From the IMG/VR virus record IMGVR_UViG_2617270963_000012: 14,754 nucleotides of DNA. The stretch is one strand, 5' to 3'. This stretch comes from a virus. Its lineage: Duplodnaviria > Heunggongvirae > Uroviricota > Caudoviricetes. The notes below the pieces were generated by a model. The model was not told the DNA's origin. It made no database searches and saw only the letters and a list, made by a program, of their open reading frames with translations. Both the position numbers and the translations under genes were made by a program. Of the stretch, positions 9,917 through 14,754 are shown piece after piece. How positions within the stretch are numbered: position 1 is the first letter of the stretch; each line of letters begins with the position of its first letter.

Positions 9917-11536
9917 ATGTCAGATATCACCGCAAATGTTGTGGTAAGCATGCCTTCGCAACTCTTCACTATGGCTCGTTCTTTTTAAGCCGTAGCCAAT
10001 GGCAAAATTTATATCGGTAAAATTGACACTGACCCGGTAAATCCTGAAAACCAGATTCAGGTTTATGTGGAGAACGAAGACGGTTCTCACGTCCCTGTTT
10101 CGCAACCAATCATCATTAACGCTGCTGGTTACCCTGTATATAACGGACAGATTGCCAAGTTCGTAACTGTGCAAGGTCATTCGATGGCTGTTTATGATAC
10201 GTACGGTGCGCAGCAGTTCTATTTTCCTAATGTGCTGAAGTATGACCCTGATCAGTTACGACAGGATTTGTCTTCACAGGGCGGCGTAAACTTAGTTAAT
10301 GGTGCCGTTAGTTATGATAATCTGGGTAGTGAATACGGGCTGAATCTCATAGGTGAATATGCCGAAATATCAAATTTACGGGATGTAGCACCATCTGTAG
10401 GTGATAAGGTCATGGTGAAGGAGCACACCACAGGACGTGGTTTGTTAGGTGGTGGTGTTTTCGTAGCTGTATCAGGGAATTACACAGATGATGATGGAGT
10501 ATTTATTTCGTCTGCTTCCCCATCTGTATATTGGGTACGAAGTGGCGCAGGTAGTCATGTTATAATTGAATGGTTCGGTGGCAAATCTGAAGATCAGAGT
10601 TTAGATCATTCTCCTATCCTGGCTAACGCACAGTTATATGAAGGTCGATCGATAGAGTTTCAGTACGGAAGCTACTACTTTACACCTCCATGCGTCATCA
10701 AGCCGTCTATGCATTTCATCGGCAGCGGTGGCGCTAAAACATTCTGGCGAAACAAAAATATAAATGCGGACGCCACGGTGTTCTTCGCCAACACCGGGAG
10801 TGCATCTTCTTGGGCTGAAAATACAGTGTTCGAGCGCATTCATTTTAGTAATGACTCCAGCTCTACCCCCAGCAATGCGGCTATATCACTGCAACATGCG
10901 AGTCTATTTAAATTTGATAAGTGCGGTTTTTACAAGGCACCGATTTACGCATCAGATTTACACTGGGTTACTTGGAATGGCTGCGTATTAATCGACAGTA
11001 TGACCACAATTAACGAGGCCAGTGTATCACCAGCATTTCCTATTAACGAGGGTCCAGCATTTATCGACTGCTATATGGTCAGATCCCCTATAGATATAAC
11101 TGATGTTGCCGATTTGAGACTAGTAGGCACTTCGATGTTTTACGGACCTTACGGCATAAAGTCAACGACACACCGACCTTTAGATTCAGGGGCGGATTCT
11201 CGGGGATTACCGGTATTTATAACTAATAGCGTAATTGACAATATTGACGGTTATTGCTTGGACCTTAACAGAGTGGCGGTAGGAACTATCACAAACAGCC
11301 TGTTCTCTGGAGGAAGAGTGTCAGGGACTCCAGCAATACGTGCAACAGAGGTTTTGGGACTTAGCTTTAACGCCAATGTTATCCATTTCGCCGGTCAGGA
11401 ATGCATGTACCTCTATGACGTGCAGAATATATTAATGGGTAATAACTGGCAACACTTTCGTAGGTGTACCCGGAGTGGTAGGGCAGACAGGGTCTGGAAG
11501 GACAGTTTATACAGCCATGGCAAATGTAGGCCTTAA
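9917..11536 (+). pseudogene. Tailspike gene with P22-type N-terminal head-binding domain, interrupted by an in-frame TAA at codon 24 (9986-9988); divergent receptor-binding domain
   Basis: ATG at 9917 with GGAG 7 nt upstream. Translation [58 protein letters not shown]...[11 protein letters not shown]...LKYDPDQ parallels the recalled P22 gp9 N-terminus (MTDITANVVVS...[24 protein letters not shown]...), with TAA where P22 has a Lys codon. The listed ORF 10067..11536 is the downstream part of the same frame, opening at GTG. Confidence 0.85.
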
Positions 11537-11658
11537 TGATAACTGATCACACTTGGATGCTGTATATAGATTTATGTGATTTCATGATTTATATGTTCAA
11601 TCAAGTTTTAAATGAAGCTTTATTGACTAAATAACAGTTACAGTCTTTTGATAAAGAA

Positions 11659-11679
11659 CTGGCAGCATGCTGCTGCCAG
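11659..11679. terminator. Hairpin between the convergent tailspike and gtrC-like genes; probable bidirectional intrinsic terminator
   Basis: ctggcagca / tgc / tgctgccag: 9-bp perfect stem (11659-11667 with 11671-11679) and 3-nt loop, flanked by A/T-rich sequence on both sides. Lies immediately 3' of the gtrC-like stop (11689) on the - strand and about 120 bp 3' of the tailspike. Confidence 0.6.
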
Positions 11680-11688
11680 TAAATATAA

Positions 11689-13479
11689 TTATTTCATCTC
11701 TATTGAAATTGAGCTAATACATGAGCTTGTGTCTGAGTTATATATTCTCACCTCGACATCAGGATAGGTTTTATCAATGTAGAAATCCATGTCAACTACA
11801 TTATTGATTTTAGCAATTAATTTTTTACCACCAAACGCTACAATATCACCTAATACATCACCTCTACCACTTTTTTCAATATGCATTTTATACATACCTT
11901 TCTTGAGAGGTTTGTATGGTCCTGTTACCAAGAATGTAGCACCGTCTTTTTTGCATACTTGAAATTCATCACTATAACCTAGAGAACCAAAGTATTTTGA
12001 ATTGGTTAACGTGTGAAAACCGGTAAATGGTATATTTATCCCGTCATTCCATACTAAGATAAACTTTGACATGACTTTATCAATTACATCAGGTCTTCCA
12101 TATTGCATTATTGCAGCGTCCATGTCTTCTTTACTATCAGCTATAATAAATGAATTGTTTTGCTCATAATTATTTATTTTAGCTAACCATAAAAATGGTT
12201 TTACACTTCCTTCATGGTTATTAAATACTACTGGCGATATCTCTGAACCACTATTTAATGAAACTGACGACGCAAACCAGAATGAAGCAAAACCTGCTTT
12301 AAGATTATGCTCCTTTATATATTTTGAAATATCATTAATTTCATGGTTTTTTTTATCTAATGAAATGGCGTTACCATAAATTATGGCACCGCTAACAAAA
12401 GACAAGGAAAGCAGGAATAAAGATGTTTTTTGGCTTATATTTACATTTCTACAAATAAATACAGCCCCGAAAATTACAGATGGAGCAATATATCTTATTG
12501 ATTCAACCGCTGATGGAATATTACTAAATAAGAATGCGCACGGCATTATAATCGCCGTAAGAAGCAAAGCTCTATCAATGGTTGAGAATCTTGTTATTTT
12601 TCTTGCATTAGAAGCAATGATGTAAACAAAGAACAATAGAAAGCACAGTCTAATTATGGATGAAAAAGACTGTAGCCCAATATCCATTCCAAAAAAATAT
12701 GCTTCGAAAAGACGTAATAAACCAACACATAAGAAATATAAGTTATTAATAAATTCTTCTTGTGTGGCAAACTTAGGATAACCTATTCCTGGCAATTGAA
12801 ATCCGCCAATTTCTTGCACGTAGTATAAGAGTGTTTTCGATAAAATAAAGGCAAGAAATATAGATGCCGCATAGTGCAGGTGAACTTTGTTTCGTTTGTA
12901 AAATAATTCAATTGCCAATGATGAAATTAAAGGTATCAAAAATGCGTATTTGCTTATGTCGTCGCTAAAAAATATGGCTAGGCTTAAGAGAAAAACAATG
13001 AGATAATGATGTATGTTAGCTTTGTATACAGTTGTTCTTTCTATTATAATATAAATAATTGCTGTATATAAATAAGCCCCAATATGTGATACGGCAAGGT
13101 TAAATATATTTGATGAATAAGCTCCTAGAATTCCAAATGAGAAGAATATTGCCCATGGCAACTTCTTTTTGTGATATGAAAGTATTATGCAGCATATTGT
13201 CAGAGCAGAAATAAGGATTGACGGAACTAAATATGATTGAACTTTATTACTGATACCTATTATATCCAGCAATGCATACCAAATAAGGTCTGTAAAATAG
13301 AAAGTTACGGTTGAAAGAAACCATCCTGAAAGTAGAATGTTTCCATTTGCTATGTCGTGTGAAATGATTACACCAGAAGCCTGATCAGAACTCGGGGTGT
13401 AACCATATCCAATGTAGCAATTCATCGCCACTAGAATAATAAACGAGATAAAAAGTAGTAATTTAAATCTTCTTGTCAT
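11689..13479 (-). CDS. GtrC-family polytopic membrane protein (596 aa); putative serotype-specific O-antigen glucosyltransferase
   Basis: Third gene of the gtr operon. Strong RBS AGGAG 7 nt upstream of ATG. Start overlaps the gtrB stop by 17 nt. N-terminal about 400 aa is very hydrophobic (about 10 or more predicted TM segments) and the C-terminal about 190 aa is hydrophilic. Markedly AT-rich by eye compared with the flanking genes. Confidence 0.7.
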
Positions 13480-14395
13480 TTATTTTCTCCTTTAAGATGT
13501 ATTTAGGTCTTGCCTTGGTTTCTATGTAAATCCTCCCGATGTACTCTCCAAGTACACCGATGCCGATTAGTTGGATCCCTCCAAGAAACAGAATGGACAC
13601 CAGCAGTGAAGGGTATCCTCGTACAGCATTTCCAAATGCGAGAGTGTCAAATATCATCCATGCGCCATACAGAAATGCTAGGCCAGCTACCACTAACCCG
13701 ATATAAGTCCATATGCGCAGGGGAAATGTTGAGAAGCTTGTAATCCCTTCGAGCGCAAGATTCCACAATTTCCATCCATTGAATTTTGAATTACCAGCAA
13801 CACGTTCTGCGCGGGAATATTCGACGATGTCTGTCGAGCCTCCTACCCAACTCAGTACCCCTTTCATAAAAAGGTTGCGCTCTGGCATAAGCTTGATATT
13901 TTCGACAACCTCACGGCTCATTAACCGGAAATCACCAACATTCTCTTCAATCTTTGGGTTGCTTATTTTATTGTGGAGCTTATAGAACCATTCTGCAGTC
14001 TTGCGCTTCAGTCTTCCATCTGTAGAACGGTCATAGCGCTTAGCCAGTACCATATCAGCCCCTGCCTTCCACTTTTCAATAAGATGAGGAATAACCTCAA
14101 TCGGGTCTTGCAGGTCAACATCAATTGGGATTATCGCATCCCCGTTTGCATGGTCTAACCCTGCAAATAATGCTGGTTCTTTACCAAAGTTGCGTGTAAA
14201 TGACAGCGGAACAACTAGCGGATCAGAAACAGCCAGAGCGTTAATGATTGACTCCGTAGCGTCTTTGCTTCCGTCATTTATGAAAACAATTTCCACTTCA
14301 TATGACTTCAACTCTTCGAATTCACGTACCGTTTTATAAAAAATTGGTATCGCTTCCTCTTCATTGAAGACAGGAACGACAAGAGATATCTTCAT
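13463..14395 (-). CDS. gtrB: Bactoprenol glucosyltransferase GtrB (GT2 family), 310 aa
   Basis: Translation [29 protein letters not shown]...[14 protein letters not shown]...[11 protein letters not shown]... matches conserved GtrB as I recall it, including GT2 DxD-type motifs and two C-terminal TM helices. ATGA overlap with the gtrA stop. Confidence 0.95.
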
Positions 14396-14754
14396 TTCGC
14401 ATCCCTAAAGACAATGAACTTTGAATAGACGAAACCGCACACCAGGCTGATGGCGGAGAAAGTGATAAGGGTGACCATCGGGGGAAGTGCGCATCTATCA
14501 GCAGCCCACCCGACGACAACACTCAATGTTCCCATGAATCCCACGTATAACAAGTAACGCATCGTTGTAGTCGATGCCTTGAATGTGAATTTTGCATTCG
14601 CGAAGAAGCTAAAACTCACAGCCACAACGAAACCTGCGAAGTTTGCCAGAGCCTGATTGGTATGCGCGGCATAGATACATACACCAAAAACCACCCAGTG
14701 TATAAGTGTGTTCAGCACACCAATCGAGGTGTACTTTGCAAATAGCTTTAACAT
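14392..14754 (-). CDS. gtrA: GtrA, small 4-TM flippase for undecaprenyl-phosphate-glucose (120 aa)
   Basis: 120-aa hydrophobic protein [31 protein letters not shown]... immediately upstream of, and overlapping, gtrB. The ATG coincides with the last three bases of the window, so the promoter and any phase-variation elements are outside it. Confidence 0.9.

What the first reader, a model, noticed from the sequence alone, without database searches (positions are those of the whole stretch)
11689..13479. Unusually long, AT-rich GtrC-family gene of unknown specificity
gtrA and gtrB are conserved and recognisable, but the third gene encodes 596 aa, longer than the roughly 420-510 aa I recall for characterised serotype-specific Gtr proteins. 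It has a polytopic N-terminal domain and a hydrophilic C-terminal domain of about 190 aa, probably periplasmic. It is far more AT-rich than gtrB and the phage late genes, consistent with separate acquisition. Its acceptor sugar and linkage cannot be inferred from sequence, so it may specify an uncharacterised O-antigen modification. The extra length might also reflect an added domain.
Basis: partly seen in the sequence, partly recalled or inferred. Interest (0 to 1): 0.6.

Follow-up and report, generated by a model that had tools for sequence, protein, structure and literature searches.

The report
Prophage O-antigen glucosyltransferase with sugar-binding tail
The long AT-rich gene after gtrA and gtrB is a real, intact, selected gene for a membrane glycosyltransferase that most likely adds glucose to the host's surface O-antigen; its extra length comes from a carbohydrate-binding-like end domain, and it belongs to a large protein family that no curated database names.

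Summary
ORF 11689-13479 (-) encodes 596 aa, has GC 0.32 against 0.43-0.51 in its neighbours, and overlaps the end of gtrB by 17 nt.

It is not a fusion artefact. Five collinear homologues of 596-597 aa are held, four traced to Salmonella, Enterobacter and Xenorhabdus. GC is uniformly low across the gene, and dN/dS is about 0.15 in every domain.

No Pfam, NCBIfam or PDB sequence match exists, and there is no detectable homology to three GtrC types from characterised converting phages (SfV GtrV, P22-type, HF4s-type).

An AlphaFold model (pLDDT 82) shows:
- a periplasmic alpha/beta domain;

Relatives occupy the gtrC slot after gtrAB in at least nine contexts. The close clade always sits tail-to-tail with a tailspike whose receptor-binding part is 72-83% conserved and 65% identical to that of Salmonella Cerro phages.

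The best reading is an Und-P-glucose-dependent O-antigen glucosyltransferase, possibly acting on a Salmonella O18-like mannose-rich backbone. I class it as a new variant of a known kind, of moderate interest.

The parts
14392..14754 (-). gtrA, 120 aa. Proposed flippase for Und-P-glucose. Its start codon is the last triplet of the window.
   Evidence: Pfam GtrA_DPMS_TM E 8.8e-14. PHROG 2224 'GtrA-like O-antigen conversion' E 8e-70. 91-95% aa identity to SfV and HF4s GtrA.
13463..14395 (-). gtrB, 310 aa. Und-P-glucose synthase (GT2). It defines the donor sugar.
   Evidence: Pfam Glycos_transf_2 E 8e-32. PHROG GtrB E 1e-177. 91% aa identity to SfV GtrB and 84-86% nt identity to SfV, SfI, SfII, SfIV and HF4s gtrAB.
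13487..13492 (-). Shine-Dalgarno AAGGAG, 7 nt upstream of the gtrC ATG. It lies inside the 3' end of gtrB, so the two genes may be translationally coupled.
   Evidence: Read directly from the sequence.
11689..13479 (-). The gtrC-position gene: 596 aa, predicted GT-C fold glycosyltransferase with three domains.
12355..13479 (-). Residues 1-375: membrane GT-C core with 11 TM helices, N-terminus in the cytoplasm. The first periplasmic loop (26-77) carries S31-D32, G46-N47 and W53. Other near-invariant periplasm-facing residues are H132, D173, R329 and Y330.
13384..13386 (-). Codon for D32, the candidate catalytic aspartate just after TM1.
   Evidence: At least 90% conserved in both alignments. 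Its position matches the catalytic Asp of GT-C enzymes, for example the essential D31 of C. youngae ORF12 (PMC11127046). The role is inferred, not tested.
12490..12495 (-). Codons for R329-Y330, a near-invariant pair at the periplasmic end of TM10 and candidate ligands for the donor phosphate or sugar.
   Evidence: At least 90% conserved. Analogous to R349/Y350 of ORF12, where R349A abolishes activity and Y350A leaves a trace. Inferred.
12034..12354 (-). Residues 376-482: periplasmic alpha/beta domain, shared by short and long family members. It contains G396, F400 and W401.
   Evidence: Model secondary structure with pLDDT 84-95 over most of the domain. It aligns in all 17 sequences, including the 487-536 aa forms. 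PHROG 13688 and 35399 cover this part.
11692..12033 (-). Residues 483-596: C-terminal beta-sandwich resembling carbohydrate-binding modules. This is the 'extra' length. The motif GPYxxLxxGxY is conserved among the long forms.
11658..11680 (-). Intrinsic-terminator-like hairpin 9 nt after the gtrC stop, lying between the convergent gtrC and tailspike genes.
   Evidence: 10-bp stem, 6 GC pairs, T-rich tail. Sequence.
9917..11536 (+). Tailspike gene convergent with gtrC. It is the co-inherited partner of this gtrC clade. In this window it is inactivated twice.
   Evidence: Pfam Head_binding E 6e-35. In-frame TAA at 9986-9988. 161-bp deletion relative to the intact 596-aa allele. Receptor-binding part 72-83% identical across loci that carry the close gtrC clade.

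Best explanation
The gene is the third, specificity-determining component of a prophage gtrABC serotype-conversion cassette.

Proposed mechanism:
1. [quoted passage not shown]
2. GtrA flips it to the periplasm.
3. The 596-aa protein, an 11-helix GT-C fold glycosyltransferase, transfers the glucose onto a defined sugar of the O-antigen.
4. This changes the host's serotype and masks the receptor of the phage's own tailspike.

Inferred details:
- D32 in the first periplasmic loop is the likely catalytic base.
- H132, D173, R329 and Y330 probably line the donor site.
- The extra C-terminal beta-sandwich probably binds the O-antigen backbone and holds the acceptor near the active site, as shown for the CBM of Citrobacter youngae ORF12 (GT136) and for EmbC.
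- The acceptor is probably the glycan read by the adjacent tailspike, possibly a Salmonella O18 (Cerro)-like mannose/HexNAc backbone.

Shown here: gene integrity, purifying selection, predicted fold and domain architecture, synteny with gtrAB, and linkage to the tailspike.

Inferred only: donor, catalytic residues, CBM function, acceptor and linkage.
For: Fold:
- The AlphaFold2 model has pLDDT 82.4 and pTM 0.81.

Topology: N-terminus in, 11 TM helices, C-terminus out, by the positive-inside rule. The conserved acidic residues face the periplasm.

Context:
- The ORF overlaps gtrB by 17 nt and has a strong SD.
- Relatives sit directly after gtrA-gtrB in E. coli P22-like and myovirus-like prophages, Salmonella, Xenorhabdus, two Enterobacter loci, Serratia, Pantoea and a psp-adjacent locus.

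Donor: GtrB is 91% identical to SfV GtrB.

Selection: dN/dS is 0.12-0.19 in all three domains against the Salmonella orthologue.

CBM:
- Precedent: the ORF12 CBM (residues 503-652) binds unmodified O-polysaccharide (PMC11127046).

Acceptor clue:
- The close gtrC clade (53-88% identity) is always convergent with a tailspike whose receptor-binding part is 72-83% identical. This holds even where the tailspike's N-terminal particle-binding domain differs, as in Enterobacter.
- That receptor-binding part is 65% identical to the tailspike allele unique to phages FSL SP-031, SP-038 and SP-049, which were isolated on serovar Cerro.
- A 73% identical gtrC lies in a serovar Cerro prophage.
Against: - There is no sequence-level homology to any characterised glycosyltransferase: Pfam, NCBIfam and PDB searches by single sequence and by profile, and hhalign against GtrV, P22-type and HF4s-type GtrC.
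- The assignment rests on a predicted structure built from a 17-sequence alignment, plus synteny.
- No experimental datum exists for any family member found here. All are annotated 'hypothetical'.
- One 32%-identical Citrobacter relative has no adjacent gtrAB, and one distant relative sits in a polysaccharide synthesis cluster. The family is therefore not restricted to Gtr cassettes.
- A review describes the published Salmonella O18 O-antigen as identical to a main chain without mentioning a side branch. Glucosylation of that antigen is thus undocumented.
- The prophage in this window has a dead tailspike, so it is decaying and expression of gtrC is unproven.
- Only one GATC lies upstream of gtrA, so the regulation known for P22-type gtr operons cannot be assumed.
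Confidence: 0.78

Rival explanations
1. It is a GT-C glycosyltransferase fed by GtrAB, but its acceptor is not the O-antigen. The acceptor could be another periplasmic or surface glycoconjugate, such as capsule or K-antigen, enterobacterial common antigen, LPS core or a protein.
For: The acceptor was not tested. A distant relative (P0018) lies in a non-phage polysaccharide cluster with an ABC transporter, a sulfotransferase-like gene, a GT4 gene and UDP-sugar enzymes. One tailspike relative in the phage database is annotated as colanic-acid degrading (H45).
Against: All close relatives lie in the classical prophage position gtrA-gtrB-gtrC next to a tailspike. The tailspike's receptor-binding part matches that of phages isolated on serovar Cerro. 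The established function of gtr cassettes is O-antigen glucosylation (PMC3688519; PMC7685785).
Confidence: 0.1
2. It is a GT136-type enzyme, like Citrobacter youngae ORF12, that transfers a pentofuranose or other non-glucose sugar rather than glucose.
For: The overall architecture is the same: 11 TM helices, a helical periplasmic element after TM1 and a C-terminal CBM. The pattern of critical residues is similar (D after TM1, a His, and an R-Y pair after about residue 330-350).
Against: The partners here are GtrB (91% identical to the SfV Und-P-Glc synthase) and GtrA, not a polyprenyl-phosphoribose synthase and a MATE flippase. The ORF12 fingerprint D31/E34/Y35/H106/H174/E176/R349/Y350 was not found in any of the 197 family proteins held. 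ORF12 is reported to hit the EpsG family in CDD, whereas none of 68 members here hits any Pfam glycosyltransferase family.
Confidence: 0.04
3. It is an acyltransferase-type 'GtrC', like the Salmonella family II/BTP1 proteins, which would explain a length near 600-640 aa.
For: Only the unusual length. One of 68 relatives gave a marginal Acyl_transf_3 hit (E 0.0017).
Confidence: 0.01
4. The long ORF is an artefact: two genes fused by a sequencing error or mutation, or a decaying pseudogene.
For: The neighbouring tailspike gene is demonstrably damaged in this window.
Against: The identical 596-aa protein is on 17 public contigs. Five collinear homologues of 596-597 aa are held, four traced to Salmonella, Enterobacter and Xenorhabdus. 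GC and GC3 are uniform across the domains. dN/dS is 0.12-0.19 in each domain. The same two-part architecture recurs in about a quarter of the 147 family representatives not already in the query alignment (39 are at least 580 aa).
Confidence: 0.01

Closest known systems
Gtr(type)/GtrC serotype-specific glucosyltransferases of converting phages: SfV GtrV, SfII GtrII, the P22 GtrC family and HF4s GtrC
   Same: It is the third gene after conserved gtrA and gtrB at the tailspike or att end of a temperate phage, and is AT-rich relative to gtrAB. It is a polytopic inner-membrane protein with a periplasmic loop after TM1 and a periplasmic C-terminal region. The long periplasmic C-terminal ends of GtrI, II, V and X have been hypothesised to confer serotype specificity (PMC3259042). 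The expected donor is Und-P-Glc.
   Different: No detectable sequence relationship: hhalign probability is below 4%, there is no Pfam Glucos_trans_II or DUF6056 match, and tblastn against 50,697 phage records finds nothing. It is 110-186 aa longer and carries an appended CBM-like beta-sandwich, which the papers read here do not mention for the Shigella and Salmonella enzymes.
Citrobacter youngae O1 ORF12, founding member of CAZy GT136 (Kelly et al. 2024, PMC11127046)
   Same: It is the GT-C enzyme of a three-component periplasmic O-antigen side-chain system, with 11 TM helices and a C-terminal beta-rich CBM after TM11. The ORF12 CBM binds the unmodified O-polysaccharide and is dispensable when the enzyme is over-expressed. 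ORF12 has an essential Asp just after TM1, an essential His and an R-Y pair (D31, H106, R349, Y350), compared with D32, H132, R329, Y330 here.
   Different: ORF12 uses Und-P-ribofuranose or -xylofuranose made by a PRPP-dependent synthase and flipped by a MATE protein. It is encoded in the chromosomal O-antigen cluster of an ABC-transporter pathway. Here the partners are GtrB and GtrA on a prophage. Sequence homology could not be tested because the ORF12 sequence was not obtainable. The E34/Y35 part of its fingerprint is absent here.
ArnT, PglB/AglB/STT3, PMT, ALG and mycobacterial Aft/Emb GT-C glycosyltransferases with solved structures
   Different: Sequence identity is 6-12%, and there is no sequence-level hit even with a family profile. 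Donors and acceptors differ.
CBM6/CBM35/CBM36/CBM4-type beta-sandwich carbohydrate-binding modules
   Different: Identity is 7-13%, there is no Pfam CBM match, and the ligand is unknown. Beta-sandwiches of this size also occur in non-carbohydrate-binding proteins, such as the GOLD and collagen-binding domains that appear lower in the lists.

Membership tests
Gtr three-component O-antigen glucosylation system (functional class 'GtrC / Gtr(type)') | The gene lies immediately downstream of gtrA and gtrB, on the same strand, in a prophage. | tested here: met
   In the window, gtrA is at 14392-14754, gtrB at 13463-14395 and the ORF at 11689-13479, all on the - strand, with a 17-nt overlap. The same order occurs in at least nine independent loci of relatives.
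Gtr three-component O-antigen glucosylation system (functional class 'GtrC / Gtr(type)') | Polytopic inner-membrane protein of the GT-C fold with a periplasmic loop after TM1. | tested here: met
Gtr three-component O-antigen glucosylation system (functional class 'GtrC / Gtr(type)') | Transfers glucose from Und-P-Glc to the O-antigen and converts the serotype. | not testable with these tools
   Needs LPS chemistry and serology. The donor is inferred from GtrB being 91% identical to SfV GtrB.
Pfam PF14264 Glucos_trans_II (P22 / SfII-type GtrC) | Match to the family HMM at or above the gathering score. | tested here: not met
   No hit for the query at E <= 0.01, nor for any of 68 relatives. Positive control: SPN9CC GtrC hits at E 3.8e-33. 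hhalign probability 4%.
Pfam PF19528 DUF6056 (HF4s-type GtrC, annotated as epsilon34-like) | Match to the family HMM. | tested here: not met
   No hit. Positive control: HF4s GtrC hits at E 2.5e-49. hhalign probability 0.2%.
SfV GtrV-type glucosyltransferases | Detectable sequence or profile homology to GtrV. | tested here: not met
   hhalign probability 0.2%. tblastn against all phage records, which include SfV, SfI, SfII, SfIV and HF4s (listed), gave no match at E 1e-5.
Acyltransferase-type 'GtrC' (Acyl_transf_3 + SGNH, Salmonella family II / BTP1) | An Acyl_transf_3 membrane domain. | tested here: not met
   No Pfam hit. The fold is GT-C.
CAZy GT136 (C. youngae ORF12) | Significant sequence similarity to ORF12. 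| not testable with these tools
   The ORF12 sequence (GenBank MH325883) is in none of the reachable collections. The SI holds no sequence text in the part read.
CAZy GT136 (C. youngae ORF12) | Architecture of 11 TM helices, a periplasmic element after TM1 and a C-terminal CBM; critical residues D31, E34, H106, R349 (Y35, Y350). | tested here: inconclusive
   The architecture is matched by the model. D32, H132, R329 and Y330 are conserved here, but there is no E/Y at +2/+3 after the Asp. The full fingerprint is absent from 197 family proteins.
CAZy GT136 (C. youngae ORF12) | Partnered with a polyprenyl-phosphoribose synthase and a MATE or SMR flippase. | tested here: not met
   The partners are GtrB (GT2) and GtrA.
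Beta-sandwich carbohydrate-binding modules (CBM6/35/36-like) | Beta-jelly-roll fold of about 100-130 aa. | tested here: met
Beta-sandwich carbohydrate-binding modules (CBM6/35/36-like) | Binds a carbohydrate ligand. | not testable with these tools
   Needs a pull-down of LPS or O-polysaccharide with purified residues 483-596, as was done for ORF12 503-652.

The most novel reading that the evidence does not exclude
This gene and the receptor-binding part of the adjacent tailspike may form a portable 'recognise-and-mask' pair for one O-antigen type. That pair moves between phage chassis and between at least four genera.

In this reading the CBM-like tail of the transferase and the tailspike read the same backbone, a Salmonella O18/Cerro-like mannose-rich repeat.

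The gene would then be the unidentified determinant of a lysogeny-dependent O-factor. Candidates, recalled from memory, are the variable O:6,14 factors of serovar Cerro or one of the still unassigned glucose side-branches of the E. coli O17/O44/O73/O106 group.

Its family has at least 5,600 clusters at 50% identity and no Pfam or NCBIfam model. On this reading it would be a major unrecognised branch of periplasmic GT-C glycan-decorating enzymes that merits its own CAZy or Pfam family.
Probability: 0.2. Interest if true: 0.6.

Novelty: new variant of a known kind. Interest (0 to 1): 0.4.

Why it matters
O-antigen side-branch glucosylation changes serotype, phage sensitivity and antibody recognition. 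[quoted passage not shown]

This gene is an intact, selected example of a GtrC type that annotation pipelines call 'hypothetical'. Its family is large, with 5,620 50%-identity representatives at E <= 1e-3, yet it has no Pfam or NCBIfam model. Genome-based serotype prediction and prophage cargo surveys will therefore miss it.

The appended CBM-like domain offers a tractable way to ask how Gtr enzymes find their acceptor. The strict linkage to one tailspike receptor-binding domain gives a sequence-based handle on acceptor specificity.

It is not a new principle. The three-component mechanism, GT-C enzymes with CBMs and the extreme sequence diversity of GtrC proteins are all established.

Tried and rejected
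**Searches for close or characterised relatives (all negative)**
- Megablast of the gene against 50,697 phage records and 5,426 complete E. coli genomes, and tblastn against the phages, found nothing. The gene is rare and absent from sequenced converting phages.
- Pfam, NCBIfam and PDB sequence searches with the single protein and with a 68-sequence profile found nothing useful. PHROGs gave only 'unknown function' fragments.
- Foldseek against BFVD viral models gave nothing below E 1e-3.
- The AFDB50 library was unavailable.

**Attempts to obtain a GT136 sequence for a direct homology test (all failed)**
- Neither accession tried from the paper's supplement (CP099034, BK026208) is in the local collections.
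- The gene of the 650-aa relative P0018 has no E. coli match.
- A protein search with P0018 returned only itself and cost one of the three searches.
- P0018's neighbours turned out to be UDP-sugar enzymes, not a pentofuranose system.
- A residue-fingerprint scan for ORF12 among the 197 proteins held was negative.

**Other dead ends**
- The genome-contig scan used a single peptide pattern and returned only 8 loci, all short forms.
- A hit for 'gtrC' in a serovar Cerro genomics paper was a false lead: the term matched the 'GTRCAT' substitution model.
- A Dam/OxyR phase-variation region like that of P22-type gtr operons was looked for upstream of gtrA in a related contig, since that region lies outside the window. 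Only one GATC was found, against four in the P22-type control.

**Readings rejected**
- The acyltransferase, pseudogene/fusion and pentofuranosyltransferase readings were all rejected; see the rival explanations.
Full report
**1. What is in the window**

The + strand up to about 10,260 is the late region of an Sf6/P22-like podovirus prophage, 96% identical to Shigella phage Sf6 over 77% of the query. It includes the injection proteins gp7, gp20 and gp16 and an Mnt/Arc repressor.

A tailspike gene follows at 9917-11536 (+). Convergent with it, on the - strand, lie gtrA (14392-14754), gtrB (13463-14395) and the ORF in question (11689-13479).

The window is 99.98% identical to contig JHDM01000019.1 of E. 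coli 1-110-08_S3_C1. In that contig the cassette abuts ybhB and the bio operon.

**2.

- The ORF is 596 codons, ATG to TAA.
- An AAGGAG ribosome-binding site lies 7 nt upstream, and the start overlaps gtrB by 17 nt.
- A terminator-like hairpin follows the stop.
- GC is 0.321 (GC3 0.261), against 0.43-0.51 for every other gene measured.
- Nucleotide similarity to the gtrAB of SfV, SfI, SfII, SfIV and HF4s (84-86%) stops at the 3' end of gtrB. The composition break therefore coincides with a cassette boundary.
- An open frame of this length in DNA of this composition has a chance probability of about 6e-21.

**3. It is a real, intact, selected gene and not a fusion**

- The identical protein is encoded on 17 public contigs.
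- Collinear homologues of 596-597 aa occur in Salmonella (73%), Enterobacter roggenkampii (60%), Xenorhabdus bovienii (56%) and an unnamed source (54%).
- Against the Salmonella orthologue, dN/dS is 0.15 overall: 0.14 for the membrane core, 0.12 for the middle domain and 0.19 for the C-terminal domain. For comparison, gtrB gives 0.02.
- GC is uniformly low in all three domains.

**4. Sequence databases do not name it**

- There is no Pfam, NCBIfam or PDB sequence hit. PHROGs gives only 'unknown function' families that cover fragments.
- Three GtrC proteins from converting phages were fetched as controls:
  - The P22-type protein (SPN9CC) hits Pfam Glucos_trans_II.
  - The HF4s type hits DUF6056.
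  - GtrV hits nothing.
- Profile-sequence comparison of the family with each control gives probabilities of 0.2-4%.
- This is in line with the literature. Salmonella GtrC 'families' share less than 18% identity with one another (PMC3688519).
- The word-indexed protein search found only 18 relatives.
- An exhaustive HMM search with the family profile found far more: 5,620 representatives (50% clusters) at E <= 1e-3 and 918 at E <= 1e-30.
- All named members are 'hypothetical protein'. One UniRef entry carries an automatic 'RgtA/B/C/D-like' glycosyltransferase label.
- None of 68 diverse members hits a Pfam glycosyltransferase family.

**5. Predicted structure**

AlphaFold2 with the 17-sequence alignment gives pLDDT 82.4 and pTM 0.81. 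The only very weak segments are residues 114-130 and 497-499.

The membrane core:
- Foldseek agrees, with STT3, AftD, PglB, EmbC and ArnT (TM 0.49).
- Treating the long helices as membrane spans gives 11 TM segments with the N-terminus in the cytoplasm. K+R counts are 3, 1, 1 and 3 in four of the cytoplasmic loops between helices, against 0, 0, 0, 2 and 0 in the five periplasmic loops.
- The residues that are at least 90% conserved in both alignments (S31, D32, G46, N47, W53, H132, D173, P183, R329, Y330) lie in the first periplasmic loop or at periplasmic helix ends.

The two periplasmic domains:
- Residues 376-482 form an alpha/beta domain present in every family member.
- Residues 483-596 form an all-beta domain.

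**6. Why it is long**

In the alignment, the eight relatives of 487-536 aa end at about residue 482. The nine long forms (596-650 aa) carry the extra beta domain with a conserved GPYxxLxxGxY motif.

Among the 147 family representatives not already in the query alignment, 39 are at least 580 aa and 104 are 470-560 aa. The long architecture is therefore a recurrent variant, not an oddity of this locus.

**7. Genomic context of relatives**

| Relative | Context |
|---|---|
| E. coli, this protein | ybhB \| gtrA gtrB gtrC >< tailspike |
| Salmonella, 73% | Same order, in a P22-like prophage |
| Serovar Cerro contig, 73% | gtrC >< tailspike, at a contig edge |
| Xenorhabdus, 56% | Same order, next to thrS |
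| Enterobacter, 60% | gtrA gtrB gtrC >< tailspike of a different phage type |
| E. coli short form, 487 aa | gtrC slot of a myovirus-like prophage at the same ybhB site |
| Short forms in Serratia, Enterobacter and Pantoea | Directly after gtrAB |
| 604-aa form | After gtrAB, next to the psp operon |
| Pseudomonas | gtrB about 4 kb away |
| Citrobacter, 607 aa | Exception: no adjacent gtrAB, beside an unrelated tailspike |
| P0018, 650 aa, 21% | Exception: in a polysaccharide synthesis cluster |

**8. Linkage to the tailspike**

- The intact allele of the adjacent tailspike is 596 aa, as in related E. coli contigs.
- It is 72-83% identical between the E. coli, Salmonella, Cerro and Xenorhabdus loci.
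- In Enterobacter the tailspike has a different N-terminal particle-binding domain (Tail_spike_N). Its residues 134-616 are nevertheless 73% identical to residues 114-596 of the E. coli protein.
- The receptor-binding part and this gtrC clade therefore travel together across phage chassis.
- In the phage database the best full-length matches (65% over residues 50-596) are FSL SP-031, SP-038 and SP-049. All three were isolated on serovar Cerro and share a tail-fibre allele unique to them (PMC3728262).
- According to a review, the O-antigen of Salmonella O:18 (K), the serogroup of Cerro, is identical to the Man/GalNAc main chain of Y. pseudotuberculosis O:2c/O:4a (PMC5399914).
- This supports, but does not prove, that the acceptor is such a backbone.

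**9. Mechanism proposed**

- Donor: Und-P-glucose. GtrB is 91% identical to SfV GtrB. The pathway is as reviewed in PMC7685785 and PMC11127046.
- Catalysis occurs at the periplasmic face by a GT-C enzyme, with D32 as the likely base and H132, D173, R329 and Y330 around the donor phosphate and sugar.
- These roles are inferred by analogy with C. youngae ORF12. There D31A, E34A, H106A and R349A abolish activity and Y350A nearly does.
- The CBM-like domain would bind the unmodified O-polysaccharide. This was shown for ORF12 residues 503-652, which bind deribosylated LPS and are dispensable when the enzyme is over-expressed.
- The biological outcome would be serotype conversion and masking of the tailspike receptor.

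**10. Comparison with known families**

- By position, fold and predicted role, the protein is a Gtr(type)/GtrC enzyme.
- By sequence, it is a member of none of the GtrC families tested.
- Its closest described analogue in architecture is GT136 ORF12. That enzyme works with a different donor-synthesis and flippase pair, and I could not obtain its sequence.
- A CBM on a GT-C enzyme is known from EmbC, AftD and ORF12. The papers I read do not mention one for the classical Gtr proteins.

**11. Verdict**

It is an uncharacterised GtrC-position GT-C glycosyltransferase from a large uncurated family. The extra length is explained by a CBM-like domain, and the tailspike gives a testable lead on acceptor specificity.

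It extends a well-known system rather than revealing a new one. I rate interest at 0.4.

Noticed in passing
window 9986-9988 (tailspike gene 9917-11536, +): There is an in-frame TAA at codon 24 of the tailspike gene (AAA to TAA, in the conserved 'SFKAVANGK' motif). All three related public contigs compared (L001, L002, L003) have A at 9986, so the nonsense change is unique to this window. This is why the ORF list starts the tailspike at GTG 10067.
   Followed up: yes
window about 11435-11446: The window and the two E. coli 1-110-08 isolates (L001, L003) lack 161 bp of the tailspike 3' region that L002 and L004 retain. The deletion lies between 12-bp direct repeats (ATGGGTAATAAC). It shifts the frame and gives a 539-aa product instead of 596 aa. 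The prophage tailspike is thus damaged twice while gtrABC stays intact.
   Followed up: yes
window 14060 (gtrB): This is the second difference from all the public contigs compared. It is a synonymous GGT/GGG (Gly) change in gtrB.
   Followed up: yes
window 9535-9828 (-) and 9920-10180 (-): An Arc/Mnt-type repressor gene sits between gp16 and the tailspike, with Pfam Arc and Repressor_Mnt hits. The 86-aa ORF at 9920-10180 on the opposite strand of the tailspike start has no family hit and is probably spurious.
   Followed up: partly
L002 8338-8520 (upstream of gtrA, outside the window): The spacer between ybhB and gtrA contains what I recognise from memory as the phage-lambda att core (reverse complement of GCTTTTTTATACTAA), followed by sequence that looks like the lambda attP P arm. 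This Sf6-like prophage therefore appears to be integrated at attB-lambda next to the bio operon. The short-form gtr prophage (L008-L010) uses the same site.
   Followed up: partly
L002 8278-8725, compared with L017 2153-2505: Only one GATC lies upstream of gtrA in the E. coli locus, against four in the P22-type SPN9CC control. I found no sign of the Dam/OxyR phase-variation region described for Salmonella gtr operons. OxyR sites were not searched for.
   Followed up: partly
L011 2367-4190 and L012: A 607-aa Citrobacter relative (32% identity, with the CBM-like tail) stands alone, without gtrA or gtrB. It lies between thrS and a tailspike with an unrelated receptor-binding part. It would have to rely on Und-P-sugar made elsewhere in the genome.
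   Followed up: partly
L029 1209-5815: A 604-aa relative follows gtrAB. An Acyl_transf_3 gene lies about 0.5 kb upstream, and the locus sits next to the psp operon with no phage genes in view. This may be a fixed chromosomal island that modifies O-antigen by both acetylation and glycosylation.
   Followed up: no
L021 (MAG labelled Bacillota, JAEXAX010000025.1): This contig carries gtrA and gtrB that are 87-90% identical to the E. coli proteins, plus a short-form relative. A 4.5-kb contig of this kind is most likely a mis-binned enterobacterial fragment.
   Followed up: no
L014 144-8588: The most distant relative used (P0018, 650 aa, with a CBM-like tail) lies in a non-phage polysaccharide cluster. 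Its neighbours are an ABC-transporter ATPase, a sulfotransferase-like protein, a GT4 enzyme, an NAD-dependent epimerase/dehydratase and a UDP-glucose dehydrogenase. No GtrB-like gene is visible in the 8.6 kb held.
   Followed up: partly
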